Part shown: piece by piece, positions 4,631 through 58,664 of the stretch
How positions within the stretch are numbered: position 1 is the first letter of the stretch
Layout: every line of letters begins with the position of its first letter
From: Desulfobacterales bacterium
GTDB taxonomy: Bacteria; Desulfobacterota; Desulfobacteria; Desulfobacterales; Desulfosalsimonadaceae
Assembly: GCA_018399235.1 (NCBI GenBank)
Contig: JAGYOX010000001.1
Coordinates: forward strand, 646-64,645
DNA: 64,000 nt
Reading direction: 5' to 3'
Made by a program: the position numbers and the translations under genes
The notes under the pieces: generated by a model
The model's input: only the letters and a program-made list of their open reading frames with translations
Told to the model about the DNA's origin: nothing
Database searches by the model: none

Positions 4631-4788
4631 ATTCCTAGTGCCCATCCATAAATGGCTAATTTGCCCAATTTCTGTGTCAGGCTCAAATTTTAATCCTCAA
4701 AATACTTCGAGTATTCCTGCGGTTAAAATTTTCGCCTTCCTTGAACTTGGACAAATTATCTTATTTATGGACGGACACTTCCTAATGG
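4631..4788 (-). repeat. About 158-nt imperfect inverted repeat (long hairpin) just upstream of the small Cys/Lys-rich gene
   Basis: Arms 4637-4653/4763-4779, 4657-4668/4747-4758, 4685-4693/4723-4731 and 4701-4705/4711-4715 pair. All three mismatches inside the stems are C-A or A-C on the plus strand, so they become G-U wobbles on the minus strand. Confidence 0.6.
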
Positions 4789-4969: not shown

Positions 4970-7222
4970 ATGCAGGAATATGAGGAACTAAAATCTAATC
5001 TTCAGGGGGTTAACCAGACCCTTTGTGAATTAATGGGGCAGGCCAAAACGGTTCCGGCGGCGTCGGATCAAATTTTTGATGAATGGGAGACCGCCTGCCA
5101 TAAGATCGCCGGGCAGCTTGAAGACGACCTGGTGCGGGTGGCCGTGGTGGGTGCCATAAAATCCGGCAAGTCCACCATGATAAACGCGATGTTGAGCGGT
5201 GATTTTTTAAAGCGCGGGGCCGGTGTGGTCACCTCCATGGTCACCCGGTTAAGGCGTGGGCCGCAAAATAGGGCGCAGCTGTATTTCAAATCCTGGGACG
5301 AGGTCAATAGCGATATTCAAAGGGCGCTTGTGTTGTTTCCGTCTTCGGACTGGCGTAGCCTGAAGGATTCGTTTGATATCCGCCGGGAGACCGATCGGCA
5401 GGAACTGGAAGCCGCGCTTAAGAATCTTTCCACCCGGGACTTGATCACCAATGATACACGGAATTTAAACAGCCTTTTGCTTTTATCCTATCTGGAAGGC
5501 TATGAACGGGTTAAAGATATTATCGGTGAGGACAATGTTATAAAAGAGTTTACCGGCGGGCAATTTGCCGCCCACCAGGAGTTTTCAGGCAACGACACGC
5601 TGGCCTTTTATCTGAAGGATATCGCCCTTGAGGTGGATTCAGAAAACATTATACCCAATATTGAGATCGCCGACTGCCAGGGCAGCGACTCTCCCAATCC
5701 CTTACATCTCGCCATGATTCAGGACTATCTGCTCTCCGCCAACCTGCTAATATATGTAATCAGCAGCCGCACCGGCATTCGCCAGGCGGATATCAATTTT
5801 CTTTCCATGCTCCGCCGGATGGGATTTATTGAACAGATCGTTTTTGTTATTAATTTTGACTTTAATGAGCATGACTCCCCCGATGATTTGAACCGGCTAA
5901 TCGCCAGAATCAAAGAAGACCTCCGGATGGTCCGGAAAACTCCGCAGATCTATACGTTTTCCTCCTTGTTCAGCCTGTTTAAGTCTATCGCCGGGGAGCT
6001 TTCCGACAAGGACAGTCAGCGGTTTGACCTATGGAAAAAGGAACAGGAGCTGGTATCGTTTTCCGAATCCGAGGAAGAAAGATTCATGCGCGCCTTCCAT
6101 GAGATCGTCACGAGCCAGCGCTATTCGATCCTGTTTAAAGCCCCGGTGGAGCGGCTTCAAATGATTACCAACGGCATATTGAAATGGTGCCGGATGAATC
6201 GGGATGTGCTGGGTAAAGGTTCGGAAGAATCCGCCCAGCTGATAAAGAAAATAAAGGCCGAGCAGAAACGGCTCAACCGGGTGCAGTCCATGATCAAGAG
6301 TACGGTTGAGGGAACCCTCCAGCAGATCAAGCGGGATCTTAAAAAAGATGTGGATGGCTACCTGGACCCGAAGTATGGCGAATTGGTCGCCCCGATCATT
6401 GAGTTTGTTAAAAACTATTCCATCTCAGCGGAGCGATACTCAGAGCAGCTGGCCGGCGGCCGGTTCTCTGATGCATTATATGCGGTATTTCAGGAATTTA
6501 CTCATGAGCTGGACGCATACATGGCCGAAACGATCAACCCGAAAATATTTCATTTCATCAAAACCGAAGAGGACCGGATCAAAGAGTATTTTGAATCAAT
6601 TACCGGCCCCTATGAGGCAATGGTCAATGACGCCATGGCCCAATACAACGCCGTGTTAAACAATCTGGGGCTGGAAACGGTTGATGAAAACTCTCATGAA
6701 ATATCCTTGCCGGATTTTCAGGCCCTTAAAAGGCAGCATGGCCTTGAACTCCCGCCGGCCGCCACCACCATGAATTACAGCAAGGCGATAAAGACCGAGG
6801 CGGTCATGCGTTTTGGCATGTATAATCTGGCCAACCGGCTCAGGCGCCTTTTCCGCCGGCCTGCGGGCAATTCGGTAAAAGAGGGGCATGCGGCGCTCAA
6901 GACAGCGGTAAAGCGGCTGAAGCGGGAGACCGAGGAGGGCATCTCGTTTCAGTTTAAAAATTACAAGGAAAACATTAAATTTCAGTATCTATTCACATTG
7001 GTGGATGCGGTTTCAGCACAGCTGTATGAGGAGATCATGAACCGGTTTCATGATTTTACCAATGGGCTGGTGGAGTTAAGCGAGTTTGCGGGAAAGCATC
7101 AGCTGGATGGCACGCATCTGGTCAACCAGTTGAATGATATGGCTTCAGTGGCCGTAGAGCTTGAAGGCCGGCTCAAGGAGATTGCGTTGGAGGTTAAAGG
7201 CACTGAGGGAAAAAGGCACTAA
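4970..7222 (+). CDS. Bacterial dynamin-like GTPase (large, soluble-type)
   Basis: 750 aa. Dynamin-type G1 VAVVGAIKSGKSTMINAML near residue 60, a DxxG-type motif (IADCQG), and a long helical C-terminal stalk-like region. The last about 8 codons and the stop lie inside the GGCACTRA repeat. Confidence 0.75.
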   Translation: MQEYEELKSNLQGVNQTLCELMGQAKTVPAASDQIFDEWETACHKIAGQLEDDLVRVAVVGAIKSGKSTMINAMLSGDFLKRGAGVVTSMVTRLRRGPQNRAQLYFKSWDEVNSDIQRALVLFPSSDWRSLKDSFDIRRETDRQELEAALKNLSTRDLITNDTRNLNSLLLLSYLEGYERVKDIIGEDNVIKEFTGGQFAAHQEFSGNDTLAFYLKDIALEVDSENIIPNIEIADCQGSDSPNPLHLAMIQDYLLSANLLIYVISSRTGIRQADINFLSMLRRMGFIEQIVFVINFDFNEHDSPDDLNRLIARIKEDLRMVRKTPQIYTFSSLFSLFKSIAGELSDKDSQRFDLWKKEQELVSFSESEEERFMRAFHEIVTSQRYSILFKAPVERLQMITNGILKWCRMNRDVLGKGSEESAQLIKKIKAEQKRLNRVQSMIKSTVEGTLQQIKRDLKKDVDGYLDPKYGELVAPIIEFVKNYSISAERYSEQLAGGRFSDALYAVFQEFTHELDAYMAETINPKIFHFIKTEEDRIKEYFESITGPYEAMVNDAMAQYNAVLNNLGLETVDENSHEISLPDFQALKRQHGLELPPAATTMNYSKAIKTEAVMRFGMYNLANRLRRLFRRPAGNSVKEGHAALKTAVKRLKRETEEGISFQFKNYKENIKFQYLFTLVDAVSAQLYEEIMNRFHDFTNGLVELSEFAGKHQLDGTHLVNQLNDMASVAVELEGRLKEIALEVKGTEGKRH

Positions 7223-7252
7223 GGCACTGAGGCACTAAGGCACTGAGGCACT
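7199..7252. repeat. Tandem octamer array GGCACTRA (about 5 copies)
   Basis: ggcactgagg..ggcactaaggcactgaggcactaaggcactgaggcact. The same octamer array recurs at 8321-8345 and inverted at 25038-25056. Confidence 0.85.
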
Positions 7253-7257
7253 ATGCG

Positions 7258-7346
7258 ATGTAGCGGCGGGCTTTAGCCCGCCATTCGCAGAGGCGTTCGG
7301 GTGGTAAAAATCGCATCCGCTGGAAGGCTAAAGCCTTCCGCTACAT
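7258..7346. repeat. Hairpin-pair repeat element (module A), copy 1
   Basis: atgtagcgg-GCGGGCtttaGCCCGC...GGAAGGCtaaaGCCTTCC-gctacat, with terminal inverted ends atgtagcgg/ccgctacat. Near-identical copies at 22413-22500 and (inverted) 58460-58547; partial copies at 16215-16240 and 21229-21256. Confidence 0.85.
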
Positions 7347-7416
7347 AGGTTTCACAAATTTCGATAAACAGATTGGGAACTGGCGGATGCACTTTTCTTA
7401 TCCGCCCTACAGGGCT

Positions 7417-7451
7417 TAACCATAAACCTTATACCTTATACCTTGCACCTT
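7417..7451. repeat. Degenerate heptamer array (YYTWAAC/CCTTATA type)
   Basis: taaccataaaccttataccttataccttgcacctt. Same family as the arrays at 13627-13822, 16091-16186, 20849-20981, 21277-21378, 24791-24872 and 58332-58373. Confidence 0.8.
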
Positions 7452-7473
7452 GGGTTACCCGGAAGGAGGCAAA

Positions 7474-8259
7474 ATGGCGAAAAAATCAACCCGGATAGTT
7501 GCCGTGGCTAATGAGAAGGGCGGGGTCGGTAAAACAGCCATGGTGATCAATCTCGGGGCGGCTTTGGTAAAAGACGGCAAAACCGTTCTGATCGTGGACA
7601 TGGACCCCCAGCATAATGCAACGAGCGGGCTGGGTATAGATGTTACGGATGAAATGGCCAGTGTCTATGATTTAATCAGCGATGAGGGCGGGGGGGCGGT
7701 TGATGATGTTCTCTGGTCGACCAAATGGCCTGGACTGGATGTTATCGCCTCGCATCCGGATCTGGCCGGGGCTGAAGTCGAACTGGTTGATGCAGAAGAG
7801 CGGGAGGACAGATTAAAAAATGCGATTCAACCCCTAATCGATAAATACGATGTTGTCATCCTGGATACACCGCCAAGCCTCTCTCTTTTGACAATCAATG
7901 TATTTTCCTGCGCAAACGAAGTGCTGGTGCCGTGCCAAACCCATCCCTATTCGTTCAACGCCCTTGAAGACCTTTTCGATACCATTGGAGCAGTTCAGGA
8001 AGGAATCAACCCGGAGCTAAAGATCACCGGGCTGGTCCCCACGTTTTTTGATCAGCGTCTCCGGGTGTGCCGGGACATCATGGAGCGGCTAAAGACCGAT
8101 GAACGTTACCAGGGTTTGCTTTTTAATACGATTATCCGTTCCAACATCACCATCGCGGCCAGCGCGGAGACTGGAAAACCTGTCGTGTTCTATCGCACGG
8201 GGAGTTTCGGCGCCAAGGATTATACCAGCCTTGCCCGGGAATTCATGATGGCAAAGTAA
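7474..8259 (+). CDS. ParA/Soj-family ATPase (orphan, no parB adjacent)
   Basis: Deviant Walker A NEKGGVGKT. ATG at 7474 preceded by GGAAGGAGG. The ORF-track TTG start at 7450 lies inside the repeat array and is less likely. Confidence 0.85.
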   Translation: MAKKSTRIVAVANEKGGVGKTAMVINLGAALVKDGKTVLIVDMDPQHNATSGLGIDVTDEMASVYDLISDEGGGAVDDVLWSTKWPGLDVIASHPDLAGAEVELVDAEEREDRLKNAIQPLIDKYDVVILDTPPSLSLLTINVFSCANEVLVPCQTHPYSFNALEDLFDTIGAVQEGINPELKITGLVPTFFDQRLRVCRDIMERLKTDERYQGLLFNTIIRSNITIAASAETGKPVVFYRTGSFGAKDYTSLAREFMMAK

Positions 8260-8345
8260 AGAGCGATTTATTCCGCTGGCGCGGCATTTTTGCAGAAAGG
8301 AACTTTTGCGACAGGTTAAAGGCACTAAGGCACTGAGGCACTGAG
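8258..8345. repeat. Repeat module D plus octamer tail
   Basis: aaagagcgatttattccgctggcgcggcatttttgcagaaaggaacttttgcgacaggttaaaggcactaaggcactgag. Near-identical inverted copy at 25038-25122 and a diverged copy at about 38205-38262. Confidence 0.85.
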
Positions 8346-8358
8346 CTTTTGATTTTTT

Positions 8359-8385
8359 AACCCAATACCCAATACCTAATACCCG
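8359..8385. repeat. Heptamer-like array CCCAATA/CCTAATA
   Basis: aacccaatacccaatacctaatacccg. Similar array at 22588-22620. Confidence 0.7.
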
Positions 8386-8481
8386 AAGTTCCTTGGAAGT
8401 GTTCCCCCCGGGCCGCGGGGACCGAGCCTAAAAGTAACTTTTACTGTATGCTTGAAGGCACTGAGACGATTCATCCAATTT

Positions 8482-8553
8482 TGTCATTTCGAGCGGCAGC
8501 GAGAAATCTTTAACAAACAAGATTCCTCGTCGCTTTCGCTCCTCGGAATGACA
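8482..8553. repeat. Inverted-repeat element (module B), TGTCATTTCGAGCG...CTCGGAATGACA
   Basis: 72-nt element with complementary ends. Further copies at 13533-13603 (opposite orientation) and 21145-21215; half copies at 38264-38305 and 22724-22772. Confidence 0.85.
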
Positions 8554-8645
8554 GAGAGTTAAGCTTTTGGAATAATAATATATATTTCCAAGTTATTTAG
8601 AAGTCATTTTTTATATTGCATTGGGATTTTTCATGCAGTAATCTA

Positions 8646-8663
8646 TGACTGATATGTCAGTCA
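8646..8663. promoter_or_regulatory. Candidate TetR operator palindrome
   Basis: TGACTGA-tatg-TCAGTCA, perfect 7-nt inverted arms, 25 nt upstream of the tetR-family start codon at 8689. Confidence 0.4.
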
Positions 8664-8688
8664 GTTAACTTTCAAAGGGTGGTGGCCT

Positions 8689-11448: not shown

Positions 11449-12519
11449 TCAAGCTTTTGGCCTCGCCTTTTTACGCATGCGGGATACCATGCCCATCAAC
11501 AGATCGGCGATTTCTGCCGGTGAAAGTATGTAATTGGCGGCATCAAGCTTGATCGCGGATTCCGGCATGCCAAAGACTATTGAGGTTTCCCGGTTCTGCA
11601 CCATGGTCTGCGCCCCGCATCGCTTCATCTCCTTTAAACCCGAGGCCCCGTCATTTCCCATGCCGGTGAGCAGTATGCCTGCGGCTCGGGTGCCATAACA
11701 CTTAGCCACAGACATAAACAAATGGGAGGCCGGCCGTTTCAGTTGCCCTTGGCTGCCGAATTTTGTGATAAGAACTTTTCCATCCTTAGAAATAGCCATA
11801 TTGCTTTCCTCAGGGGCAAAATATACATGGCCGGGAAGCAGTGCGTCTCCAGTTTTAGCAATCTTGAGATTAAGTCGGGTTTCACCGCTGAGCCATTTCA
11901 ACATGCCCGGCAGAAAGCCGGTGGTAATATGCTGAACCACAACAATTGGCACCGGGAAATCTGACGGCAGCTCCCTGAAAATCTCTTGAAGCACCGGCGG
12001 GCCTCCGGTTGAGGCCCCTATGGCGATGACATCAATGTTAGTCAGATTTTTTGTTTTAAGGATTTGAGACGAAGGTCCTGCGGGTTGTTTTCTCGGCTTT
12101 GGGGGAACCCGCCGCACCACCTTGACCTCTGCCATCAGTTTAATCATGCGAAGGAGTTTCTCCATAAACGGTTTGGTTTCAGGATTACCAAGTCCCGGCG
12201 GCTTTTGGGCCACGGCGACTGCTCCGGCCTGCATGGCTTTAAAAATATTTTGGGTCTGTTCAGGGGCAACCAGGGAGCTGTAAATGATGATAGGTAACGG
12301 TCGGGTTTCCATGATCATTCGAGTTGCTTTGTACCCATCCATACCGGGCATGTGGATATCCATAATTACTACATCCGGTATGGCGGATTCAACCAGCTTA
12401 ATCGCCTCGTTACCGTTTTGGGCGGCTCCGACCAGCCGCAGATCCGGATCCTGGTCGATGATATACTTAATGTATTCTCTTGCCGTTAAAGAGTCATCAA
12501 CAATAAGGACATTGATCAT
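11449..12519 (-). CDS. cheB: Chemotaxis response regulator protein-glutamate methylesterase CheB
   Basis: N-terminal receiver (VLIVDDS...DIHMPGMDG) plus a C-terminal methylesterase domain with AIGASTGGP and VVQHI motifs. Confidence 0.9.
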   Translation of the reverse strand: MINVLIVDDSLTAREYIKYIIDQDPDLRLVGAAQNGNEAIKLVESAIPDVVIMDIHMPGMDGYKATRMIMETRPLPIIIYSSLVAPEQTQNIFKAMQAGAVAVAQKPPGLGNPETKPFMEKLLRMIKLMAEVKVVRRVPPKPRKQPAGPSSQILKTKNLTNIDVIAIGASTGGPPVLQEIFRELPSDFPVPIVVVQHITTGFLPGMLKWLSGETRLNLKIAKTGDALLPGHVYFAPEESNMAISKDGKVLITKFGSQGQLKRPASHLFMSVAKCYGTRAAGILLTGMGNDGASGLKEMKRCGAQTMVQNRETSIVFGMPESAIKLDAANYILSPAEIADLLMGMVSRMRKKARPKA

Positions 12520-13451
12520 AAGGACGTTCCGATGGTCAGGTTGCGACCATTTTGCTTGGCCTGGTAGAGGCTTTGGTCGGCCGCATTGATCAAATCCTCG
12601 GCGGTTAAACCCTTTGAAGGAGTTTTATCACAAACGGCTGCAATGCCAAAGCTGGAGGTGATTTGGATCGTACCCTTGTCTGTTTTGGTCTCCAGTTTTT
12701 CGATCAGTCCTCGAAAACGCTCAGCCGCTGCCTTGGCGCCATCCAAACCCGTCTCCGGCAGGACAAGGATAAACTCCTCACCCCCGTAACGGGCAATCCA
12801 GTCCAAGTCCTTGCGTAACGCGCGGCTTAGGCAGTTCGCAAACGATTTTAAAACCATATCGCCGGTTTGATGCCCATACTGATCGTTGACGGTTTTGAAG
12901 TGATCGATATCGCTGATCACAATCGAGAGGGGGGAGGCGTAACGCTGGGCCCGTTTGAACGCCTTGGGCAGGTTTTCATTTAAATATCCCCGGTTAAAGA
13001 CCCGCGTCAAGGGGTCTGTGATGGATAAAAGGGCGATTTCCTTGTTTCGCTGCTTCAGGGAGGATTCCAGCGAAATGATGCGCTCCGCGGTTGTCAACCG
13101 GGCGATCAGTTCGGCATTATCCACCGGCTTGGTCAGGTAATCATCCGCGCCTGCCTCCAACCCCTCGATAATATCATTTTTGGAGTTTTTGGCTGTCAAC
13201 AGGATAATATATACATACCCGCCGAACTCATGCTTTCTGATGGCGTGGCATAATTCCGAGCCGTCCATTTCTGGCATCATCCAGTCGGTAATGACAATGG
13301 AAATCGGTCGATTCAATAACATCGTCATGGCTTCCAGCCCGTTTTTGGCCATGGCCACCTGATAACCGTGATTTTCCAGCATCAGCTTGAACTTCAGGGC
13401 CTGTGTCTGGCTGTCTTCAACCAGCAGGATTTCAAGCGGTTTTTTTAGCAT
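12516..13451 (-). CDS. Response regulator with GGDEF output (diguanylate cyclase, WspR-like architecture)
   Basis: 311 aa. REC (ILLVEDS...TDWMMPEMDG), a coiled linker and a GGDEF domain with RYGGEEF. 4-nt overlap with the cheB start. Confidence 0.85.
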   Translation of the reverse strand: MLKKPLEILLVEDSQTQALKFKLMLENHGYQVAMAKNGLEAMTMLLNRPISIVITDWMMPEMDGSELCHAIRKHEFGGYVYIILLTAKNSKNDIIEGLEAGADDYLTKPVDNAELIARLTTAERIISLESSLKQRNKEIALLSITDPLTRVFNRGYLNENLPKAFKRAQRYASPLSIVISDIDHFKTVNDQYGHQTGDMVLKSFANCLSRALRKDLDWIARYGGEEFILVLPETGLDGAKAAAERFRGLIEKLETKTDKGTIQITSSFGIAAVCDKTPSKGLTAEDLINAADQSLYQAKQNGRNLTIGTSL

Positions 13452-13532
13452 GAAGGAATACTTTCTAAAAAACTTAATAATATATATTTATTCCATAAGG
13501 TTAAAAAGCTAACTTTCCGAGGACCTTTTTTT

Positions 13533-13603
13533 TGTCATTCCGAGGAACGAAAGTGACGAGGAATCTTGTTTATAAAGATTTCTCGCTAACGCTCGAAATG
13601 ACA
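13533..13603. repeat. Module B inverted-repeat element (opposite orientation)
   Basis: tgtcattccgaggaacgaaagtgacgaggaatcttgtttataaagatttctcgctaacgctcgaaatgaca is the reverse complement of the 8482-8553 type with a few substitutions. Confidence 0.85.
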
Positions 13604-13626
13604 AGTGCCTGACACTAATGATTCAG

Positions 13627-13822
13627 TACCCTAAATAAACCTTAAACCTTACACCCAACACCCTAAACCCTAAACCCTAAACCCTAAACCCTAAACCCTA
13701 AACCCTACACCTTACACCCTAAACCTTACACCTTACACCCTAAACCTAAACCCTAAACCCTAAACCTTACACCTTACACCTTACACCCTAAACCTTACAC
13801 CCTAAACCCAATACCTAAAACC
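13627..13822. repeat. Heptamer tandem array, about 28 units, including six consecutive perfect CCCTAAA units
   Basis: ccctaaaccctaaaccctaaaccctaaaccctaaaccctaaa at about 13661-13703, flanked by CCTTACA/CCCTAAA variants. Lies between the cheA stop (13826) and the REC-GGDEF start (13451). Confidence 0.9.
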
Positions 13823-13825
13823 CAT

Positions 13826-16081: not shown

Positions 16082-16090
16082 GTGGAAAAA

Positions 16091-16186
16091 GGTTTAGGGT
16101 ATAAGGTTTAAGGTAAAAGGTCCAAGGTAAAAGGTTTAAGGTATAAGGTTCAAGGTAAAAGGTTTAAGGTTTAGGGTATAAGGTTT
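16091..16186. repeat. Heptamer array, G-rich on plus strand (GGTTTAR/GGTAAAA/GGTATAA units)
   Basis: ggtttagggtataaggtttaaggtaaaaggtccaaggtaaaaggtttaaggtataaggttcaaggtaaaaggtttaaggtttagggtataagg. Lies between the MCP stop and the cheA start. Confidence 0.9.
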
Positions 16187-16263
16187 TTAGCTATTCAACG
16201 AAATTTGTATGGCCAATGTAGCGGAAGGCTTTAGCCTTCCAGAAGATCCCGGCTGCGGTCGCA

Positions 16264-20279: not shown

Positions 20280-20737
20280 TATGCTGTTTCTGTCACCTGG
20301 CTGATTTGTTTAACGGTTTCCTGGGGGATCAGGTTGGCAAGCTCGTAGATAAGAACCGTTTGGCTTCCAAATGTGGCGATGCCGGATATATATTGCCGCA
20401 TCTCAGGGTAGACGGTTTCCGGATCAATCGCCGGTTCCGGCTGAAGCCGGTATACCCCCATCACTGCATCCACTGCAAACGCGGCACGATAACCGGCAGC
20501 CTCCGCTATGATAAACCGGTCTGAAATACGGATTTGTCTTCCGGTCAGACCGAACTGTTTCCGGAGGTCAACAAGCGGTACCATATCCCCGCCAATATTG
20601 ATAAGGCCTATTATCAAGTCCGGGACTTCAAGCGGATAAGTCGGTTGAACAGCCCGTACAACGCGTTCTATATCTGAACTCGCAACGGCAAAATACTGAT
20701 CATCAATTGTGAAAATAACGTAATGGGCTTCGGGCAT
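20279..20737 (-). CDS. cheW: CheW-like coupling protein (first gene of the operon)
   Basis: 152 aa CheW-like domain (FTIDDQYFAVASSDIERVV...LINIGGDMVPLVDLRKQF). 1-nt overlap with the cheR start. Confidence 0.85.
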   Translation of the reverse strand: MPEAHYVIFTIDDQYFAVASSDIERVVRAVQPTYPLEVPDLIIGLINIGGDMVPLVDLRKQFGLTGRQIRISDRFIIAEAAGYRAAFAVDAVMGVYRLQPEPAIDPETVYPEMRQYISGIATFGSQTVLIYELANLIPQETVKQISQVTETA

Positions 20738-20848
20738 TTCTAACCACTGCTGAGTGTTATCTAAGAAATTGAATTATTGTAATTATGTAACATACGCAAA
20801 ATTATGCTGTTTTTCAAGAAAAAGCTTGTACTTATGGTAAGTAACGGA

Positions 20849-20981
20849 AGGGTTTAGGGTTTAGGGTTTAAGGTTCAGGGTTCAGGGTTCAGGGTTCACG
20901 GTTCAGGGTTTAAGGTTTAAGGTTTAAGGTACAAGGTACAAGGTATATGGTATATGGTACAAGGTTTAGGGTTTAGGGTGT
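20849..20981. repeat. Heptamer array, G-rich on plus strand (GGGTTTA, GGGTTCA, GGTACAA, GGTATAT units)
   Basis: gggtttagggtttagggtttaaggttcagggttcagggttcagggttcacggttcagggtttaaggtttaaggtttaaggtacaaggtacaaggtatatggtatatggtacaaggtttagggtttaggg. Confidence 0.9.
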
Positions 20982-21144
20982 AACAAGCAAGGTTTCAGGC
21001 TTCAGCCTTCCATTGGACGCTTATTTATTTACAATTATTTCTGATTAGACTATTAAAGAAGGGCAAAAAAGGATGGCTTTGAATGAAGCGATATATAATA
21101 CAGCGATGTTTTTGCAGGAAGCAACTCAAAAAAGCCGCCCATAC

Positions 21145-21215
21145 TGTCATTTCGAGCGGTAGCGAGAAATCTTTTGCTTGAAGATTCCTCGTCGCTTGCG
21201 CTCCTCGGAATGACA
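21145..21215. repeat. Module B inverted-repeat element
   Basis: tgtcatttcgagcggtagcgagaaatcttttgcttgaagattcctcgtcgcttgcgctcctcggaatgaca. Confidence 0.85.
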
Positions 21216-21276
21216 AGGGAGAAAAGGAAAGGCCCAAAGCCTTCCGCTACATTGTCATACAAATTCCGTTAAATAG

Positions 21277-21378
21277 CCCTGAACTCTGAACCGTGAACCG
21301 TGAACCGTGAACCTTAAACCTTGTACCCTAAACCTTAAACCTTGCACCCTAAACCTTGCACCCTAAACCTTAAACCTT
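21277..21378. repeat. Heptamer array, C-rich on plus strand (inverted relative to 20849-20981)
   Basis: ccctgaactctgaaccgtgaaccgtgaaccgtgaaccttaaaccttgtaccctaaaccttaaaccttgcaccctaaaccttgcaccctaaaccttaaaccttgc. Confidence 0.9.
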
Positions 21379-21382
21379 GCAT

Positions 21383-22279: not shown

Positions 22280-22412
22280 TAAAGCATCCTGGCCCATTGA
22301 TGCTTGGAATTTATGATTTCAGACAAATATGAGGGGATTTGTTTTCTTGAAAGTAACCCCCCCGGGCCGAGGCCCGGGTCCGAGCCTAAAAGTAACTTTT
22401 ATGGTAAATTCG

Positions 22413-22500
22413 ATGTAGAGACGGGCTTTAGCCCGTCATTCGCAGAAGCGGCCGATGTGACAAAACGCGTCCAATGGAAGGCTAAAGCCTTCCACTACAT
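22413..22500. repeat. Module A hairpin-pair element, copy 2
   Basis: gatgtagagacGGGCtttaGCCCgtcattcgcagaagcgg...GGAAGGCtaaaGCCTTCCactacat, followed (22501-22575) by the same ..caaatctcgataaac...ttatccgccctat.. tail seen after copies 1 and 3. Confidence 0.85.
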
Positions 22501-22650
22501 TGATTGTACAAATCTCGATAAACTGATCAGGAATTGACGAATGCGCTTTGTTTATCCGCCCTATATGGCTAAGATTTAGATTTTTTTAACCTAATACCTA
22601 ATACCCAAAACCTAAGACCTGAAGTTACTTAGAAGTTTATCGACTTAATG

Positions 22651-22930
22651 AAATTCCAAACAACAAATTACAAATTACAAACAAGCACCAAATAACAATC
22701 ACCAAAATTCCAAACAAAATCCTCAGAGGAATCTTGTTTGTTAAAAATTTTTCGCTACCGCCCAGAATGGCAAAGGACTCTGGGAGAGGCGGACTTTAAA
22801 CTACTTTAGAACAACATGCGGAAGACATTTAGATTTGAAAAAGTTTATAATAAAAAGATTTGTTTCGAAAATTGGAAATTGGAATTTGTTTGAGATTTGG
22901 TGCTTGGAATTTGTGATTTTAGACAAACAT
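22651..22930. repeat. A/T-rich inverted repeat (module E), arms about 70 nt around a ~140-nt core
   Basis: Left arm aaattccaaacaacaaattacaaattacaaacaagcaccaaat... pairs with right arm ...atttggtgcttggaatttgtgatttt. A second compact copy is at 24872-25031. Confidence 0.75.
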
Positions 22931-23000
22931 GCAGAGGCAGAGCCATCTATCTCTGACCTGACCTGACCCAAAGGACCAGGCTTTTCAAGACCGAGTAAAT

Positions 23001-23996: not shown

Positions 23997-24805
23997 TGGC
24001 GTTTTCAGTTGAGATAAAAAATTTGTCCTATGCCTATGAGGATCTCCAGGTGCTGGAGGATCTGTCGTTTTCCGTGAATAAGGGCGAATTTTTCGTGGTT
24101 ATCGGCCCGAATGGCTCTGGGAAAACCACTCTGGTGAAACTGATTGCCGGCCTCTTGCGGCCAAAACGGTCAGAAGTCCGTATCATGGGCGAAGATATCC
24201 GTTCCTATGGCCGGAAATCCCTTGCGAGGCAGATCGCTTTTGTGCCCCAGAACGTTCCCCTGGATTTTCCGTTTACCGTGTCAGACGTCGTTCTTTTTGG
24301 CAGAGCCCCGCATCTCGGCACATTCGGCCTTGAATCCGAAAACGATATCAAGCTGGCCGATCAGGCCATGGCATTTACCGAAGTCGACCATCTGGCCCGC
24401 CGGCGGATGGATCAGTTAAGCGGGGGGGAGCGGCAGCGGGTGTTTATTGCCCGGGCGATCTGCCAGGAGCCGGAAATCATTATTCTTGACGAGCCGACGG
24501 CGGCGCTTGATATCGCCCATCAGATGCGAATAATGGATTTGATGGAGAAGATGAAACAGGAAAAATCGATTACGGCCATCATGGTCTCCCATGATATCAA
24601 CCTGGCCGCCATGTATGCCGACACCCTGCTTTTGCTGAAAAACGGGAGGCTTTTTAAATGGGGTCCGCCGGATGAGATATTGAGCTATGAAACCCTTGAG
24701 CCCGTGTACGGATGCCCGCTTTTGGTTGACGAGAGCCCGCTGGGCCGGCTGCCGCGGGTCACGCCCGTCCCGGGGCGGTATATAAAAGAAGGGTATAGGG
24801 TGTAA
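23996..24805 (+). CDS. ABC transporter ATP-binding protein (BtuD/FecE class)
   Basis: Start at the ATG overlapping the permease stop (TAATG). Walker A GPNGSGKTT, signature LSGGERQR, Walker B IIILDEPT. The last codons (GYRV-stop) lie in the heptamer array. The ORF-track start at 23885 would overlap the permease by 112 nt and is rejected. Confidence 0.85.
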   Translation: MAFSVEIKNLSYAYEDLQVLEDLSFSVNKGEFFVVIGPNGSGKTTLVKLIAGLLRPKRSEVRIMGEDIRSYGRKSLARQIAFVPQNVPLDFPFTVSDVVLFGRAPHLGTFGLESENDIKLADQAMAFTEVDHLARRRMDQLSGGERQRVFIARAICQEPEIIILDEPTAALDIAHQMRIMDLMEKMKQEKSITAIMVSHDINLAAMYADTLLLLKNGRLFKWGPPDEILSYETLEPVYGCPLLVDESPLGRLPRVTPVPGRYIKEGYRV

Positions 24806-24872
24806 GGTTCAAGGTTTAAGGTTCAAGGTTTAAGGTTCAAGGTTTAGGGTTCACGGTTCATGGTTCATGGTT
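24791..24872. repeat. Heptamer array, G-rich on plus strand
   Basis: gggtatagggtgtaaggttcaaggtttaaggttcaaggtttaaggttcaaggtttagggttcacggttcatggttcatgg. Confidence 0.9.
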
Positions 24873-25031
24873 AAATTCCAAATTACAATACTCAAATGAC
24901 AAACAAATTCCAAAAATCAAATCCCAATTTTTAAAACAACCCCTCTTTTTTCGAATGCCCCGTTGTTTTGAATTTTGGTCATTGGAATTTGGGTATTGTT
25001 TGTTTTTTGAGATTTGAGATTTGAAATTTCG
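24872..25031. repeat. Module E A/T-rich inverted repeat, compact copy
   Basis: ttaaattccaaattacaatactcaaatgacaaacaaattccaaaaatcaaatccc... pairs with ...ggtcattggaatttgggtattgtttgttttttgagatttgagatttgaaatttcg. Confidence 0.75.
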
Positions 25032-25037
25032 ATTCTC

Positions 25038-25122
25038 CCTCAGTGCCTCAGTGCCTTTAATCTGTCGCAAAAGTTCCTTTCTGCAAAAATACCGCCGCGG
25101 CGGAATAAATCGCTTTTTACGA
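25038..25122. repeat. Octamer plus module D, inverted copy
   Basis: The reverse complement reads gtaaaaagcgatttattccgccgcggcggtatttttgcagaaaggaacttttgcgacagattaaaggcactgaggcactgagg, nearly identical to 8258-8345. Confidence 0.85.
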
Positions 25123-25131
25123 AGCCATCGG

Positions 25132-36360: not shown

Positions 36361-38151
36361 TTGATGCGAAACATAGCCGTTGCCGTCTCTATTATTTTTC
36401 TGGCAGCCGCCCTGACCGCTTCCGCCGGATTATGCGAAACCAGATACCCGGGCGAAGACTGGGCCGACCGGCCCGATCCGCTGGCCTCCCCGCATGCCAA
36501 AAAAGGCGATGAAGTTAAAACCTTCGGCGGCCAGTATCCCAAGAGCCTGAATTACTACCTGGACAACAACACGCTTTCCGCAGAAGTTTTCGGCTCAATG
36601 TTTGAAACCCTGCTCGATATGAACCCGATCACCTTGGATTACGAGCCCGGCCTTGCTGACTGGTGGACCATTTCAGACGATAAAAAAACCTTTACATTCC
36701 ACCTGGATCCGGATGCCAAATGGAGCGACGGGCAACCGGTAACTGCCGCAGATGTCCGCTGGACCTACGATGCGATAATGGATCCCAAAAATCTTACCGG
36801 CCCCCATAAAATAAGTATGGAACGCTTTAATCCGCCGAAAATTATTGATGAGCGAACCATCCAATTTACCGCCAAAAAAGTACATTGGAAGAACCTCCAG
36901 GCGGCCGGCGGGTTTAACATCATTTGCAAACATGCCTACAAGGAACAAGATTTCAACAAGATCAATTTCGAATTCCCCGTGGTGTCCGGCCCGTATAGGC
37001 TGGGGGAAATCGAGGAGGGTATGCTTATTAAGCTCAACCGACGGAAGCAATGGTGGGCAGCCGATGACAAGCGCAACCTGGGGAAATTCAATTTTGACAC
37101 GATTACCTATCGCTTCTACGCGGAGCGCACCAACGCCTTTGAGGCATTTAAAAAGGGTAAAATCGATATCTTTCCGGTCTATACCTCGCGTATATGGATT
37201 AATGAAACCAATGGAGAGGCGTTTTTCAAAAACCACATTATCAAGCAAAAGGTTTACAACCATAGACCCGTCGGCTTTCAGGGCTTTGCCATGAACATTC
37301 GAAAGCCGCCGTTTGATGATATCCGGGTACGAAAAGCCATGGCCCATCTATTGGACCGCCGGAAAATGAACCGCACCCTGATGTATAACCAGTATTTTCT
37401 GCACCGGTCCTATTTTGAAGACCTCTATTCCCCGAAGCATCCATGCCCCAACCCGTTGATCGAGCTGGACAAACAGAAGGCCAGAGACCTTTTAGAGGCG
37501 GCCGGGTGGCGGGTCAATCCCGATACCGGCTACCTGGAAAAAAACGGACGGAGATTCACCTTCAAGTTTCTGTCGAGGAATGCGTCTACAGATAAGTTTC
37601 TATCCATATATGCCGAAGGTTTAAAGGATGTGGGCATCGAGCTGGTAATCGACAAAAAAGACTGGGCCGCCTGGGCCCGGGACATGGATGAGTATAACTT
37701 TCAGATGACATGGGCGGCCTGGAGTTCCGGTGTATTTAAGGACCCGGAAAGCATGTGGCTGTCAAAGGAGGCTGAGCGCAAAGGCGGAAATAATATTACC
37801 GGTTTTAAAAACGAAACCGTGGATGCCCTCATTGAAAAGCAGAAAACCATTTTTGATATTCAAAAGCGAAACGACATCTGCCGGCAAATCGACCAGATCA
37901 TCTATCAGGCTTTTCCATATGTACTTCTATGGAATATCGACTATACCCGGCTTCTGTACTGGAATAAATTCGGGACCCCGACAACCGTGCTTTCCAAATA
38001 TGGGGACGAGTCAAGCGCCCTGGTCTACTGGTGGATGGACCCGGATGCCAAGGCGCTTTTAAGCGATGCGCTCGAGCATGATACGCCCATGCCGCCCAAT
38101 CCGGCACCGGTTAAATTTGACGAGGTGTTTGAGGGGAAAGGGGAAAGGTGA
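36361..38151 (+). CDS. ABC transporter substrate-binding protein, family 5 (peptide/opine/nickel class), orphan
   Basis: 596 aa, signal peptide (IAVAVSIIFLAAALTASAG), SBP_bac_5-like length and composition. Alternative ATG at 36364. The last codons (EGKGER-stop) lie in a GGGGAAA-type repeat. Confidence 0.75.
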   Translation: MMRNIAVAVSIIFLAAALTASAGLCETRYPGEDWADRPDPLASPHAKKGDEVKTFGGQYPKSLNYYLDNNTLSAEVFGSMFETLLDMNPITLDYEPGLADWWTISDDKKTFTFHLDPDAKWSDGQPVTAADVRWTYDAIMDPKNLTGPHKISMERFNPPKIIDERTIQFTAKKVHWKNLQAAGGFNIICKHAYKEQDFNKINFEFPVVSGPYRLGEIEEGMLIKLNRRKQWWAADDKRNLGKFNFDTITYRFYAERTNAFEAFKKGKIDIFPVYTSRIWINETNGEAFFKNHIIKQKVYNHRPVGFQGFAMNIRKPPFDDIRVRKAMAHLLDRRKMNRTLMYNQYFLHRSYFEDLYSPKHPCPNPLIELDKQKARDLLEAAGWRVNPDTGYLEKNGRRFTFKFLSRNASTDKFLSIYAEGLKDVGIELVIDKKDWAAWARDMDEYNFQMTWAAWSSGVFKDPESMWLSKEAERKGGNNITGFKNETVDALIEKQKTIFDIQKRNDICRQIDQIIYQAFPYVLLWNIDYTRLLYWNKFGTPTTVLSKYGDESSALVYWWMDPDAKALLSDALEHDTPMPPNPAPVKFDEVFEGKGER

Positions 38152-38185
38152 AAGGATAAAGGTGAAAGGGGAAAGGGGAAAGGTT
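38131..38185. repeat. Heptamer-like array GGGGAAA/GGTGAAA
   Basis: gaggggaaaggggaaaggtgaaaggataaaggtgaaaggggaaaggggaaagg. Confidence 0.8.
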
Positions 38186-38263
38186 CAAGAGAAAAGCGTT
38201 AAAGCTTTTCGTAAAGAGCGATTTATGCCAGTGTGGCCATCTTTGCAGAAAATAACTCAAAAC

Positions 38264-38305
38264 TGTCATTTCGAGCGACAGCGAGAAATCTTTAACAAAC
38301 AAGAG
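38264..38305. repeat. Half copy of module B
   Basis: tgtcatttcgagcgacagcgagaaatctttaacaaacaag matches the left half of 8482-8553. Confidence 0.8.
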
Positions 38306-38353
38306 GTCTCAAATTCCAGGAAACCGAAGCGCAACACAGATATATGGGGCGTT

Positions 38354-45706: not shown

Positions 45707-45804
45707 GGAAGTGCGAAGCTCACTGGTGGGGCTCCCGGACTTCAAATCCGGTGTAGGGCGTTAACACCGTCCTAGGTGGGTTCGATTCCCATGCACTTCC
45801 GCCA
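45707..45804 (+). tRNA. selC: Selenocysteine tRNA (tRNA-Sec, anticodon UCA)
   Basis: 98 nt. 8-bp acceptor stem GGAAGTGC/GCACTTCC, anticodon loop CTTCAAA within GGACTTCAAATCC (as in E. coli selC), long variable arm, GGTTCGATTCC T-arm, discriminator G plus encoded CCA. Confidence 0.9.
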
Positions 45805-58275: not shown

Positions 58276-58331
58276 ATGATTCCCTTTCCAAAAATAAAGA
58301 CCCTGATGAGATCGGGTTCTAAGTGACTTTA

Positions 58332-58373
58332 CGGTTTAAGGTATAAGGTTTAGGGTATAAGGTTAAAGGTTTA
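58332..58373. repeat. Heptamer array, G-rich on plus strand
   Basis: cggtttaaggtataaggtttagggtataaggttaaaggttta. Confidence 0.8.
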
Positions 58374-58459
58374 AAAAAATCAAAATTTTAGCCATATAGG
58401 TCGGATAAACAAGGCGCTTTCGTCAATTCCTGATCGGTTTATCGAGATTTGTACAATCA

Positions 58460-58547
58460 ATGTAGTGGAAGGCTTCAGCCTTCCAGCGGACGCGGCTTGC
58501 TGCATCGGTCGCTTCTGCGAATGGCGGGCTAAAGCCCGCCTCTACAT
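58460..58547. repeat. Module A hairpin-pair element, copy 3 (inverted)
   Basis: atgtagtGGAAGGCttcaGCCTTCC...GGCGGGCtaaaGCCCGCCtctacat. Preceded (58385-58459) by the inverted ..gataaacaaggcg...ttatcgagatttgtac.. tail and followed (58560-58620) by the aaaagtcacttttaggctcgg module also seen at 8425-8450 and 22381-22405. Confidence 0.85.
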
Positions 58548-58664
58548 CGCATCTACCATAAAAGTCACTTTTAGGCTCGGTCCCGGACTGCGGCCCGCGG
58601 GGAAAGCTTCCAAATTACCACGGTTCAGGGGGCAGAGATCTCCGGGTCGTGACTTGGTGAACCT

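What the first reader, a model, noticed from the sequence alone, without database searches (positions are those of the whole stretch)
7199..8553. Mosaic intergenic repeat system built from at least five reusable modules
Seen: nearly every intergenic region longer than 180 nt is assembled from the same parts. Affected regions are 7223-7473, 8260-8688, 13452-13825, 16082-16263, 20738-21382, 22280-23000, 24806-25131, 38152-38353 and 58276-58664. The parts are: (A) a hairpin-pair element with ends atgtagcgg/ccgctacat (three full copies plus partials), always joined to a ..tcgataaac..ttatccgccc.. tail; (B) the 72-nt TGTCATTTCGAGCG...CTCGGAATGACA inverted-repeat element (three full copies, two halves); (C) aaaagtaacttttaggctcgg next to a CCCGGG-rich hairpin (three copies); (D) an about 65-nt unit ending in GGTTAAAGGCAC fused to GGCACTRA octamers (three copies); (E) A/T-rich aattccaaa inverted repeats (two copies); plus 7-nt arrays in both orientations. 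Order and orientation differ between sites. No transposase, integrase or Cas gene is present. Inference: this is a non-autonomous, modular REP/MITE-like system, or the product of recombination among such elements, at a density unusual for bacteria.
Basis: seen in the sequence. Interest (0 to 1): 0.6.

Follow-up and report, generated by a model that had tools for sequence, protein, structure and literature searches.

The report
Mosaic of mobile intergenic repeat families
The gaps between genes of this uncultured sulfate-reducer relative hold at least five separate families of small mobile or self-expanding DNA repeats that land in and beside each other, which resembles the mosaic repeat clusters of E. 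coli and Neisseria and is not one new system.

Summary
About 100 kb (2.9% of the genome, 19% of non-coding DNA) is repeated five or more times. The modules are not one system.

- **A:** an inverted doublet of GTAG-tagged REP hairpins (166 REPs), REPIN/BIME-like.
- **B:** a head-to-head dimer of TGTC-tagged hairpins of the CGTC/NTS-SRM class. The genome's only small GIY-YIG (Ssn-like) nuclease gene lies exactly between two B arms. Gene and repeat co-occur across the genus.
- **D:** a chimera carrying the terminal repeat of a classical 151-165-nt MITE. That MITE has at least 65 copies, 6-bp target duplications and empty sites in a sister species.
- **C plus heptamers:** these form a unit of their own. 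In this species it captured A, and the resulting ~290-nt composite amplified to at least 33 copies.
- **Arrays:** there are 462 tandem arrays of 7- or 8-nt units. Their "word" is species-specific.

Three orthologous gene junctions are 10-100 nt long and repeat-free in most sister species.

D sits just after stop codons. The composite sits upstream of start codons. B has no orientation bias.

"Nearly every long spacer" is overstated: the figure is 31% genome-wide. These are new members and variants of known kinds.

The parts
7191..7253 (+). Linker GGTTAAAGGCACT plus a GGCACTRA octamer array (about 7 units). It overlaps and supplies the last codons and stop of ORF 4970-7222.
   Evidence: TRF. 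In sister species the upstream gene ends differently and lies 10-45 nt from parA.
7258..7346 (+). Module A: an inverted doublet of GTAG-tagged REP hairpins (ATGTAGCGG-CGGGCTTTAGCCCG... / ...GGAAGGCTAAAGCCTTCC-GCTACAT).
   Evidence: Folds with z = -5.0 and -5.6 on the two strands. The genome holds 166 REPs and 53 doublets with fixed 83-nt spacing.
7347..7465 (+). 'Tail' (third GTAG-type hairpin, GATAAAC...GTTTATC), a short heptamer array (7415-7444) and a degenerate terminus GTTACCCGGAAG that abuts the parA ribosome-binding site.
   Evidence: Alignment of 33 composite copies. The orthologous site is empty in G006, G008, G002, G005 and G003.
8260..8345 (+). Module D (starts at the base after the parA stop codon), the linker AACTTTTGCGACAGGTTAAAGGCACT, and octamers.
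   Evidence: 54 copies at >=80% coverage. 37 of 53 lie co-oriented behind a gene's 3' end, and 20 of those lie within 30 nt of the stop. The site is empty in sister species.
8346..8467 (+). C-unit: T-run CTTTTGATTTTTTA, heptamers (ACCCAAT)n, palindrome GAAGTTCCTTGGAAGT, the GC hairpin CCCCCCGGGCCGCGGGG, AAAAGTAACTTTTA, then a linker ending in GGCACTGAG.
   Evidence: Depth profile. Consensus of copies. The C part alone is present in most genomes of the genus.
8467..8553 (+). Leader ACGATTCATCCAATTT plus module B: a 72-nt head-to-head dimer of TGTC-tagged hairpin arms (CGTC/NTS-SRM class).
   Evidence: 90 copies at >=95% coverage. The leader precedes B in 19 of 19 non-coding occurrences. Folds with z = -3.8. 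The GIY-YIG gene is nested in a B element at G000 C286:8835-9224.
8554..8606 (+). Module Y (GAGAGTTAAGCTTTTGGAATAATAATATATATTT...), a recurrent right neighbour of B. Together with the end of B it gives a promoter-like match.
   Evidence: Recurs after B in at least 8 copies. Promoter-like site at 8548-8576, which is a consensus match only.
13470..13603 (-). A Y-like module and module B (13533-13603) in reverse orientation.
13636..13823 (+). Heptamer array of about 27 units (TAAACCC / TTACACC). It ends at the stop codon of the upstream gene, which is on the minus strand.
   Evidence: TRF score 201-229. It is one of 462 arrays of 7- or 8-nt units in the genome.
16087..16240 (+). Heptamer array (AAGGTTT type, 16087-16186) and a single GTAG REP (16216-16240).
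20849..21381 (+). G-rich heptamer array (20849-20983), partial REP hairpin (~20995-21017), module B (21145-21215), single REP in reverse (21226-21251), and C-rich heptamer array (21287-21381).
   Evidence: (inverted repeats I5-I14).
22347..22636 (+). Full composite: left terminus TTGAAAGTAAC, GC hairpin, REP doublet (22413-22500), third GTAG hairpin, T-run, heptamers (22589-22620), right terminus GAAGTTACTTAGAAGT.
   Evidence: At least 33 full-length copies at 89-95% identity, and only in this genome. The downstream gene is co-oriented in 26 of 33 cases.
22651..22931 (+). A/T-rich word arrays (module E: AAATTAC / AATTCCAAA type), a degenerate half of B (22726-22772, reverse), and an E2 repeat (22860-22931, also at 22297-22331).
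   Evidence: (D10, D20).
24799..25129 (.). Heptamer array (24799-24872), E-type fold-back built of 7-8-nt words (24873-25037), octamers (25038-25056) and module D in reverse, which abuts the stop of gene 25132-26523.
   Evidence: (I3: 8247-8338 against 25038-25129, 89% complementary).
38132..38304 (+). AGGGGAA heptamer array, partial D (~38219-38262) and the left half of B (38264-38304).
   Evidence: (D8).
58316..58613 (-). Second full composite, in reverse orientation, inserted between an amidase-like gene and the next gene of the operon.
   Evidence: Inverted repeat I1: 243 nt at 88% against 22347-22589. The same junction is 29-31 nt and repeat-free in G001, G002 and G008, and holds a different mosaic in G006.
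4650..4770 (+).
   Evidence: 91 nt of >=5-copy repeat in this gap. I compared the sequence by eye with the MITE consensus.

Best explanation
The spacers are pile-ups of at least five independent families of small non-coding repeats. The families insert, or expand, preferentially into each other and into a few kinds of site at gene ends.

**1. Module A: GTAG-tagged REP doublet.** A is an inverted doublet of GTAG-tagged REP hairpins (REPIN/BIME-like), and the 'tail' is a third such hairpin. I infer that Y1 (RAYT-type) transposases move or maintain such elements.

**2. Module B: TGTC-tagged hairpin dimer.** B is a head-to-head dimer of TGTC-tagged hairpins. This class was described as CGTC REPs and as NTS/SRM repeats. 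Its partner is a 96-aa single-domain GIY-YIG (Ssn-like) nuclease whose gene sits between two B arms. The 72-nt B is that cassette without the gene. I infer that the nuclease recognises the arm as single-stranded DNA.

**3. A classical MITE and module D.** A 151-165-nt MITE with terminal inverted repeats and 6-bp target duplications is mobile in this lineage. Module D is a chimera that carries the MITE's left terminal repeat and sits right behind stop codons.

**4. The C-unit.** It consists of a GC hairpin, AAGTAAC motifs, a T-run, a heptamer array and a GTTACTTAGAAG terminus. It lands next to TTAGAARG-like sequences just upstream of ribosome-binding sites. In this species it captured the REP triplet, and the ~290-nt composite then amplified.

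**5. Tandem arrays.** Arrays of 7- and 8-nt units grow and shrink by slippage, and each species has its own word.

Mosaics arise by nested insertion, by reuse of the same hot spots, and by joins at short shared sequences.
For: **Dispersal and insertion (shown)**
- The repeats are dispersed genome-wide.
- Three junctions are filled here but short in sister species. The gap upstream of parA is 10-45 nt in five congeners. The gap downstream of parA is 14-100 nt. The amidase-like junction is 29-31 nt in three congeners and independently filled by another mosaic in G006.
- The families have independent distributions in the genus.

**Module A**
- There are 166 GTAG+hairpin units with compensatory stem variants: GACGGGC/GCCCGTC, GGCGGGC/GCCCGCC and GGAAGGC/GCCTTCC.
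- 53 of them form doublets at a fixed spacing.
- The doublet is strongly structured.
- In genome G010, from another genus of the same family, a RAYT gene is flanked by GTAGCGG-type REPs. One of these is identical to the REP here.

**Module B**
- The GIY-YIG ORF lies exactly between the left and right B arms in G000, G006, G001 and G002.
- The gene is present in 4 of 5 B-bearing genomes of the genus and in 0 of 4 B-free genomes.
- The B-bearing genome without the gene (G008) has the most decayed copies.
- I picked 118 loci from many phyla only because they hold the B arm sequence. Six of them hold a homolog of the gene next to arms.
- The published Ssn/NTS work reports the same gene-between-repeats architecture (PMC11893778).

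**MITE**
- At least 65 copies carry terminal inverted repeats and NNNNTG duplications.
- Presence/absence differences run in both directions against the sister MAG GSL_CB2_4.

**Relation to genes**
- D lies behind gene 3' ends in 37 cases against 16 (p = 0.005).
- The gene downstream of the composite is co-oriented in 26 cases against 7 (p = 0.001).
- B shows no bias, 42 against 42.

**Chimeras**
- In at least 8 MITE copies the terminal repeat is replaced by the heptamer+GTTACTTAGAAG terminus, joined at A(A/G)AAGT.
Against: - No enzyme activity or transposition intermediate is shown, and all enzyme-to-repeat assignments are inferred.
- The three Y1 genes of this genome are not flanked by module A. 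They are flanked by another inverted motif. The genome has no close homolog of the G010 RAYT.
- The published SRM search pattern does not match the B arms. I could not test whether the nuclease belongs to CDD family cd10448.
- I found no autonomous parent of the MITE.
- I found no target duplication for the composite. Its shared TTRRAAGT ends do not co-vary between the two sides.
- Gene calls were crude longest-ORF calls, so distances to starts and stops are approximate.
- The co-occurrence test rests on only nine genomes.
Confidence: 0.8

Rival explanations
1. One integrated modular system: a single machinery assembles and moves all the modules, as the first reader's 'system' wording implies.
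For: Modules recur in a limited set of orders. Examples are octamers, leader and B (19 of 19), and C, then A, tail, T-run, heptamers and terminus.
Against: - The modules have different distributions among congeners.
- They have different end structures: TIR+TSD, GTAG hairpins and TGTC hairpins.
- They show different orientation behaviour.
- Single modules occur alone at many sites.
Confidence: 0.05
2. The modules are host-selected cis-acting elements, such as 3'-end or terminator modules, 5'-UTR or ribosome standby sites, or protein-binding arrays. Their mobility is secondary.
For: - D is biased to the position right after stop codons.
- The composite and the C-unit are biased to lie upstream of co-oriented starts.
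- G-rich arrays lie a median 11 nt after stops, whereas C-rich arrays lie nearer to starts.
- The end of B together with module Y gives a promoter-like match.
Against: - Orthologous sites lack the elements in sister species, and the operon structure is unchanged there.
- Terminator-like and promoter-like sites are not enriched.
- D, the tail and the arrays show no significant fold.
- There is no Rfam match.
- B and the arrays show no orientation bias.
- Target preference for stop-proximal and RBS-proximal sequences explains the biases equally well.
- No transcript data could be obtained.
Confidence: 0.2
3. Assembly or binning artefact: the repeats are chimeric joins in a fragmented metagenome-assembled genome.
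For: Many copies lie at contig ends, and 150 arrays have no ORF on one side.
Against: - The window's copies lie inside a 64.8-kb contig between conserved genes.
- The same families occur in independent assemblies, including an 8-contig genome (G002).
- The MITE copies carry target duplications.
Confidence: 0.02

Closest known systems
BIMEs of E. coli (clusters of REP hairpins with linker motifs) and REPIN-RAYT systems of Pseudomonas (Bertels & Rainey 2011, PMC3116915; GTAG-tagged REPs, Di Nocera et al. 2013, PMC3733652)
   Same: - Module A is a 23-25-nt hairpin with an unpaired 5' GTAG tag.
- It is extragenic, in high copy, and mostly in inverted doublets that fold as one long hairpin.
- It clusters with other motifs into mosaics.
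- RAYT-class genes exist in the genome.
   Different: - No RAYT gene flanked by module A is present in this assembly.
- The doublet is fused to a third hairpin and to an unrelated hairpin+heptamer unit, and it spreads as a ~290-nt composite.
- Desulfobacterota were not among the phyla covered by the 2013 survey.
NTS/SRM repeats with Ssn single-stranded-DNA nucleases, including Neisseria dRS3/NIME mosaics (Chenal et al. 2025, PMC11893778), and the CGTC-tagged REPs of Di Nocera 2013
   Same: - Hairpin arms begin with (C/T)GTCATTCC and end with GGAATGAC(A/G).
- They are organised head to head.
- They are present in about 100-180 copies.
- A small single-domain GIY-YIG gene is flanked on both sides by the arms.
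- The repeats cluster with other families in mosaic spacers.
   Different: - The arms (TGTCATTTCGAGCG..AGCGAGAAATC) are not found by the published degenerate SRM pattern: 22 hits against about 20 in shuffles.
- The two arms pair with each other into one 72-nt hairpin with a fixed T·G position.
- Nuclease activity and CDD family are untested here.
Classical bacterial MITEs (TIR plus target-site duplication), reviewed by Delihas 2011 (PMC3184786)
   Same: The 151-165-nt family has terminal inverted repeats of about 13-18 nt, 6-bp duplications, dozens of copies, and insertion polymorphism between sister species.
   Different: - No autonomous parent was found.
- The sequence is about 83-96% conserved across genera of the family.
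- One derivative (D) keeps only one terminal repeat and sits on stop codons.
STRR heptamer repeats of heterocystous cyanobacteria (Mazel et al. 1990, from memory), TAACTGA repeats of Beggiatoaceae (MacGregor 2015, PMC4679880), and G-rich heptamers of Xanthomonas and Nostoc (PMC4692102)
   Same: Tandem 7-nt units occur in intergenic DNA at hundreds of loci. The words are species-specific, and the arrays are often close to start or stop codons.
   Different: About half of the arrays here are built into a larger repeat unit, lying between a T-run and the GTTACTTAGAAG terminus. 8-nt GGCACTRA arrays accompany them. No function is known in any of these cases.

Membership tests
REP / REPIN (GTAG-tagged) with RAYT | Short (20-40 nt) imperfect palindrome with an unpaired 5' GTAG tag, extragenic and in high copy | tested here: met
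   166 matches to GTAG-N1-3-stem-loop-stem on 75 contigs. The stem variants are compensatory.
REP / REPIN (GTAG-tagged) with RAYT | Units mostly arranged as inverted doublets that can fold into one hairpin | tested here: met
   53 convergent doublets, nearly all with 83-nt spacing. The doublet folds at -26 kcal/mol with z = -5.
REP / REPIN (GTAG-tagged) with RAYT | A cognate RAYT gene flanked by the same REPs (REPtron) | tested here: not met
   - Three Y1 genes were found. One reaches NCBIfam NF047646 at 81.2 bits against a cut-off of 80.
- There is no module-A REP on their contigs.
- They are flanked by the motif GGGTCGGGCCAAGNTAAC instead.
- In related genome G010 a RAYT gene is flanked by GTAGCGG-type REPs, one identical to module A's.
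- G000 has no close homolog of that RAYT.
- The assembly is 93% complete, so absence is not proven.
NTS/SRM-Ssn (CGTC-type hairpins with GIY-YIG ssDNA nuclease) | A small single-domain GIY-YIG gene flanked 5' and 3' by its own hairpin repeats | tested here: met
   At C286:8835-9224 the order is B left arm, 96-aa ORF, B right arm, plus extra partial arms. The same holds in G006, G001 and G002. The protein matches PF01541 at E = 1e-16 as a single domain.
NTS/SRM-Ssn (CGTC-type hairpins with GIY-YIG ssDNA nuclease) | Repeat matches the published SRM pattern HGTCWYN(0-2)YYVSBRHN(0-5)WNVSBRGN(0-2)RNCYNB | tested here: not met
   Neither strand of B nor the flanks of the gene match. The genome gives 22 hits against 17-22 in shuffles. 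The tag TGTC, the AT that follows it and the GGAATGACA end do fit the CGTC-family description.
NTS/SRM-Ssn (CGTC-type hairpins with GIY-YIG ssDNA nuclease) | Gene and repeat co-occur across genomes | tested here: met
   The gene is in 4 of 5 B-bearing and 0 of 4 B-free genomes of the genus. Six of 118 arm-bearing loci from other phyla hold a homolog beside arms.
NTS/SRM-Ssn (CGTC-type hairpins with GIY-YIG ssDNA nuclease) | Protein belongs to CDD cd10448 and cuts single-stranded DNA next to the repeat | not testable with these tools
   No CDD search and no assay were available. The only PDB relative by sequence is UPF0213 protein BH0048, at E = 5e-4.
MITE | Terminal inverted repeats, target-site duplication, no coding capacity, many copies | tested here: met
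   At least 65 copies of 151-165 nt. The terminal repeat is TGAYRGYYTCGTAAAAAGTC and the duplication is a 6-bp NNNNTG. Empty and filled sites are seen against the sister MAG.
MITE | An autonomous parent element with the same terminal repeats | tested here: inconclusive
   A crude scan for paired terminal repeats 0.2-3 kb apart found none. The one pair at 3 kb is two separate MITEs.
STRR-type heptamer arrays | Tandem 7-nt units, intergenic, at many loci in one genome | tested here: met
   326 loci with period 7 and 68 with period 8. In all there are 462 loci covering 26 kb, 90% of them outside ORFs. The reversed control pattern gives 0 hits.
Known structured RNA families (Rfam) | Match to a curated covariance model | tested here: not met
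   The only hit in the window is tRNA-Sec. There is nothing at E <= 1 in 20700-25200.

The most novel reading that the evidence does not exclude
The 7-8-nt 'word' arrays are by-products of how mobile-element ends are processed, not independent microsatellites. On this reading they arise by repeated short re-copying ('stutter') next to a terminus that a single-strand-specific enzyme recognises.

**Hints:**
- 145 of the 310 period-7 non-coding arrays adjoin the C-unit's T-run, its GTTACTTAGAAG terminus, or both.
- Array length and word vary between copies of the composite that are otherwise 89-95% identical.
- 12 of the 13 copies of GGGTCGGGCCAAGNTAAC, the motif that flanks the Y1-transposase genes, are preceded by 2-3 tandem words that re-copy the first bases of the motif.
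- The word is species-specific: 327 hits here against 0 in the closest congener.

If true, this would give a testable origin for STRR-type heptamer repeats, which to my knowledge have had no accepted explanation since they were first described (1990, from memory).
Probability: 0.15. Interest if true: 0.75.

Novelty: new variant of a known kind. Interest (0 to 1): 0.45.

Why it matters
- **Two repeat classes in one genome.** One 3.5-Mb Desulfobacterales genome holds both great classes of bacterial hairpin repeats, GTAG/RAYT-type and CGTC/Ssn-type. It also holds a classical MITE and STRR-like arrays, and these are physically fused into recurrent composites. That makes it a compact natural test bed for how such families interact.
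- **Ssn-associated repeats may be under-counted.** The Ssn-associated repeat class extends to arms that the published search pattern misses, so surveys using that pattern may under-count it.
- **Repeats rewrite gene ends.** Repeats replace the C-terminus and stop codon of one gene. They also insert 260-390 nt into operon junctions without disturbing the ribosome-binding site.
- **Practical cost.** These repeats break metagenome assemblies and create spurious ORFs.

Tried and rejected
- **Rfam.** The gathering-threshold search of the whole window and the E <= 1 search of 20700-25200 found only tRNA-Sec.
- **Promoters and terminators.** The promoter/terminator scan showed no enrichment, and D is not called a terminator.
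- **RAYT as the partner of module A in this genome.** The Y1 genes lie on contigs without module A.
- **Published SRM pattern.** It does not match B.
- **Autonomous parent of the MITE.** None was found.
- **Target duplication for the composite.** The shared TTRRAAGT ends do not co-vary, so this stays unresolved.
- **Sigma-54 and sigma-70 promoters in the tail.** Checked by eye only. The match is poor, with GA in place of the -12 GC.
- **Global orientation bias of heptamer arrays relative to transcription.** There is none, 72 against 60.
- **Literature search for the B arm sequence.** It returned only unrelated primer hits.
- **Local-duplication hypothesis.** Rejected.

Full report

Yes. Reading the nine listed spacers shows the same blocks again and again. 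Repeat finding in the window recovers them:
- The 72-nt palindromic element appears three times in full and twice in part (D8, D19).
- A 243-nt block at 22347-22589 is 88% complementary to 58371-58613 (I1).
- A 92-nt block at 8247-8338 is 89% complementary to 25038-25129 (I3).
- There are many arrays of 7-nt and 8-nt units.

The window lies on the largest contig of a 3.47-Mb, 299-contig genome with 48.7% G+C. Earlier notes place it in Desulfobacterales. The nearest named relatives are 'Desulfobacterales bacterium GSL_CB2_4' and a Desulfosalsimonadaceae MAG.

**2. Local duplication or dispersed families?**

The families are dispersed.
- Each module gives 54-204 blastn hits on 32-118 contigs of the genome, many of them at contig ends.
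- A self-comparison shows that 100 kb (2.9% of the genome) is present five or more times.
- 93% of that lies outside crude ORFs, which is 19% of all non-coding DNA.
- 31% of spacers longer than 180 nt carry such repeats, against 7% of shorter ones.

In the window, seven gaps longer than 150 nt have none, so 'nearly every' is too strong.

**3. Module A is a doublet of GTAG-tagged REP hairpins.**

A generic search for GTAG followed by a GC-rich hairpin finds almost only one family. Its form is GTAG-N2-G(G/A)(A/C)(G/A)GGC-TTYA-GCC(C/T)(G/T)(C/T)C, with compensatory stem variants.
- There are 166 copies on 75 contigs.
- 53 pairs are convergent with a fixed 83-nt spacing.
- The doublet folds as one long hairpin, with z about -5 on both strands.
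- The 'tail' ends in a third inverted CTACAT tag next to a GATAAAC/GTTTATC hairpin.

This is the anatomy of GTAG REPs, REPINs and BIMEs (PMC3733652; PMC3116915).

The genome has three Y1-transposase genes. One passes NCBI's REP-associated tyrosine transposase model, at 81.2 bits against a cut-off of 80. The other two are damaged: one has an in-frame stop and one a frameshifted C-terminus. None lies near module A. They are flanked by another inverted motif, GGGTCGGGCCAAGNTAAC. This resembles the 'TIRtrons' of Di Nocera et al..

In G010, a genome of another genus in the same family, a 161-aa RAYT is flanked by GTAGCGG-type REPs, one identical to module A's. G000 has no close homolog of that protein. 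The class assignment of A is therefore solid, but its enzyme in this genome is not identified.

**4. Module B belongs to the CGTC / NTS-SRM class and has a GIY-YIG partner.**

Ninety copies share sharp ends, TGTCATTTCGAG...CTCGGAATGACA.

The 25 specified bases of the left arm occur exactly in more than 118 stretches of genomes from many phyla. There it is usually the 5' arm of a hairpin with a variable loop.

The own genome has only two GIY-YIG matches, UvrC and one small ORF. The small ORF lies exactly between a B left arm and a B right arm, with extra partial arms outside. The same arrangement holds in three congeners.

Within the genus:
- B is present in G000, G001, G002, G006 and G008.
- B is absent from G003, G004, G005 and G007.
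- The gene is present in the first four of the B-bearing genomes and in none of the B-free ones.
- G008 has B but no gene, and it has the most diverged copies.

Six of the 118 loci from other phyla hold a homolog next to arms, one at 72% identity in an Anaerolineales genome. The protein has more than 3,900 relatives, at 70-79% identity in very different phyla.

This pairing was published in 2025. Ssn nucleases are small GIY-YIG enzymes that cut single-stranded DNA next to NTS/SRM hairpins, and their genes are typically flanked by those hairpins (PMC11893778). The hairpins include Neisseria dRS3, which is the CGTC-1 REP family of Di Nocera et al..

The B arms fit the CGTC-family description (TGTC tag followed by AT). 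They are not matched by the published SRM pattern, which gives only background counts here. B shows no orientation bias towards genes. A T·G position in its stem is fixed in 50 of 52 copies.

**5. A classical MITE, and module D as its derivative.**

I aligned loci of the sister MAG with G000. This exposed a 151-nt insertion in G000 flanked by a duplicated GTTTTTG, and the reverse case at another site.

The family has at least 65 near-full copies with terminal inverted repeats and 6-bp NNNNTG duplications. It occurs in all nine genomes of the genus and in 27 of 41 relatives.

Module D begins with the same left terminal repeat, (G)ATGGCTTCGTAAAAAG. D lies co-oriented behind a gene's 3' end in 37 of 53 cases, and 20 of those are within 30 nt of the stop. 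At parA it starts at the base after the stop codon, where sister species have unrelated short spacers.

**6. The C-unit, the composite and the arrays.**

Alignment of 33 copies defines a ~290-nt composite with these parts in order:
- TTRGAAGTAAC
- GC hairpin
- AAAAGTAACTTTTA
- REP doublet
- third hairpin
- CTTTTGATTTTTTTA
- 4-7 heptamers
- GTTAAGTTACTTAGAAGT

Full-length copies at 89-95% identity exist only in G000. Congeners have the C part alone, or a few pieces of A.

The gene downstream of the composite is co-oriented in 26 of 33 cases, whereas the upstream gene shows no bias, 17 against 14. The bias therefore does not look replication-driven.

At two junctions where the site is empty in a sister species, the ancestral sequence next to the ribosome-binding site reads TTAGAAGGAGG or GTTAGAAAGGAA. 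Both resemble the element's terminus. I infer a target preference from this; it is not shown.

TRF finds 462 arrays of 7- or 8-nt units covering 26 kb, 90% of them non-coding.
- They show no overall strand bias relative to transcription, 72 against 60.
- G-rich-sense arrays sit a median 11 nt after stops.
- The RGGTWYA word gives 327 hits here, 0-14 in congeners and 62 in one other genus.
- 145 of 310 period-7 non-coding arrays adjoin the C-unit's T-run, its terminus, or both.

**7. How the mosaics form.**

Three observations point to nested and repeated insertion plus joins at short shared sequences:
- The same junction is filled by different mosaics in two species.
- The MITE is often found in the centre of E-type fold-backs.
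- In at least 8 MITE copies the terminal repeat is replaced by the heptamer+terminus block, joined at A(A/G)AAGT.

The parts have different ages and ranges. That argues against one machinery.

**8. Limits.**

- Gene calls were crude.
- Enzyme roles are inferred.
- The co-occurrence test has only nine genomes.

**9. Verdict.**

This is a real, dense, BIME/NIME-like mosaic. It is made of new members and variants of known repeat classes in a lineage where they had not been described. It is not a categorically new system.

Noticed in passing
G000 contigs C236 (1786, 1812, 19314, 19340, 21040) and C275 (6384, 10603, 14359), plus C21, C125 and C213: The 13-copy motif GGGTCGGGCCA(A/T)NNTAAC flanks the Y1-transposase (RAYT-like) genes. 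In 12 of 13 copies it is preceded by 2-3 tandem 'words' of 7-26 nt that re-copy the first bases of the motif. Eight of the 13 copies lie on the two contigs that carry the Y1 genes.
   Followed up: partly
window 7191-7222: The last ~11 codons and the stop of ORF 4970-7222 are encoded by repeat sequence (GGTTAAAGGCACT plus octamers). Sister species have different, unrelated C-termini.
   Followed up: partly
window 8548-8576 and 13477-13504: The end of B together with module Y gives a sigma-70-like match (ATGACA-17-AATAAT with TG). It points at the downstream TetR-like gene. A Y-like copy in reverse points at gene 12516-13451. This could be a portable promoter, which I did not test.
   Followed up: no
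G000 C236:~23016-23060: One Y1 gene starts with MARMARMARMARMAR, encoded by five tandem ATGGCAAGA units. It also carries an in-frame TAG.
   Followed up: no
Relatives G013 (9 copies), G010, G040 and G020: Other Desulfobacterales genomes hold multi-copy homologs of the small GIY-YIG gene. These are flanked by canonical CGTC-type hairpins (CGTCATTCCGGCG..CGCCGGAATCCAG) or by GTCATGCCTGCG-type hairpins.
   Followed up: partly
151-nt MITE, e.g. G000 C69:3240-3390: The MITE is 83-96% identical across genera whose ParA proteins differ by 13-26% even within the genus. This suggests horizontal spread or strong constraint on the whole element.
   Followed up: no
window 45707-45804: A tRNA-Sec gene.
   Followed up: no
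window 13661-13703: Six exact CCCTAAA units, the plant-type telomere repeat, lie inside the long heptamer array. This is simply one word variant among the genome's RGGTWYA-type arrays.
   Followed up: partly
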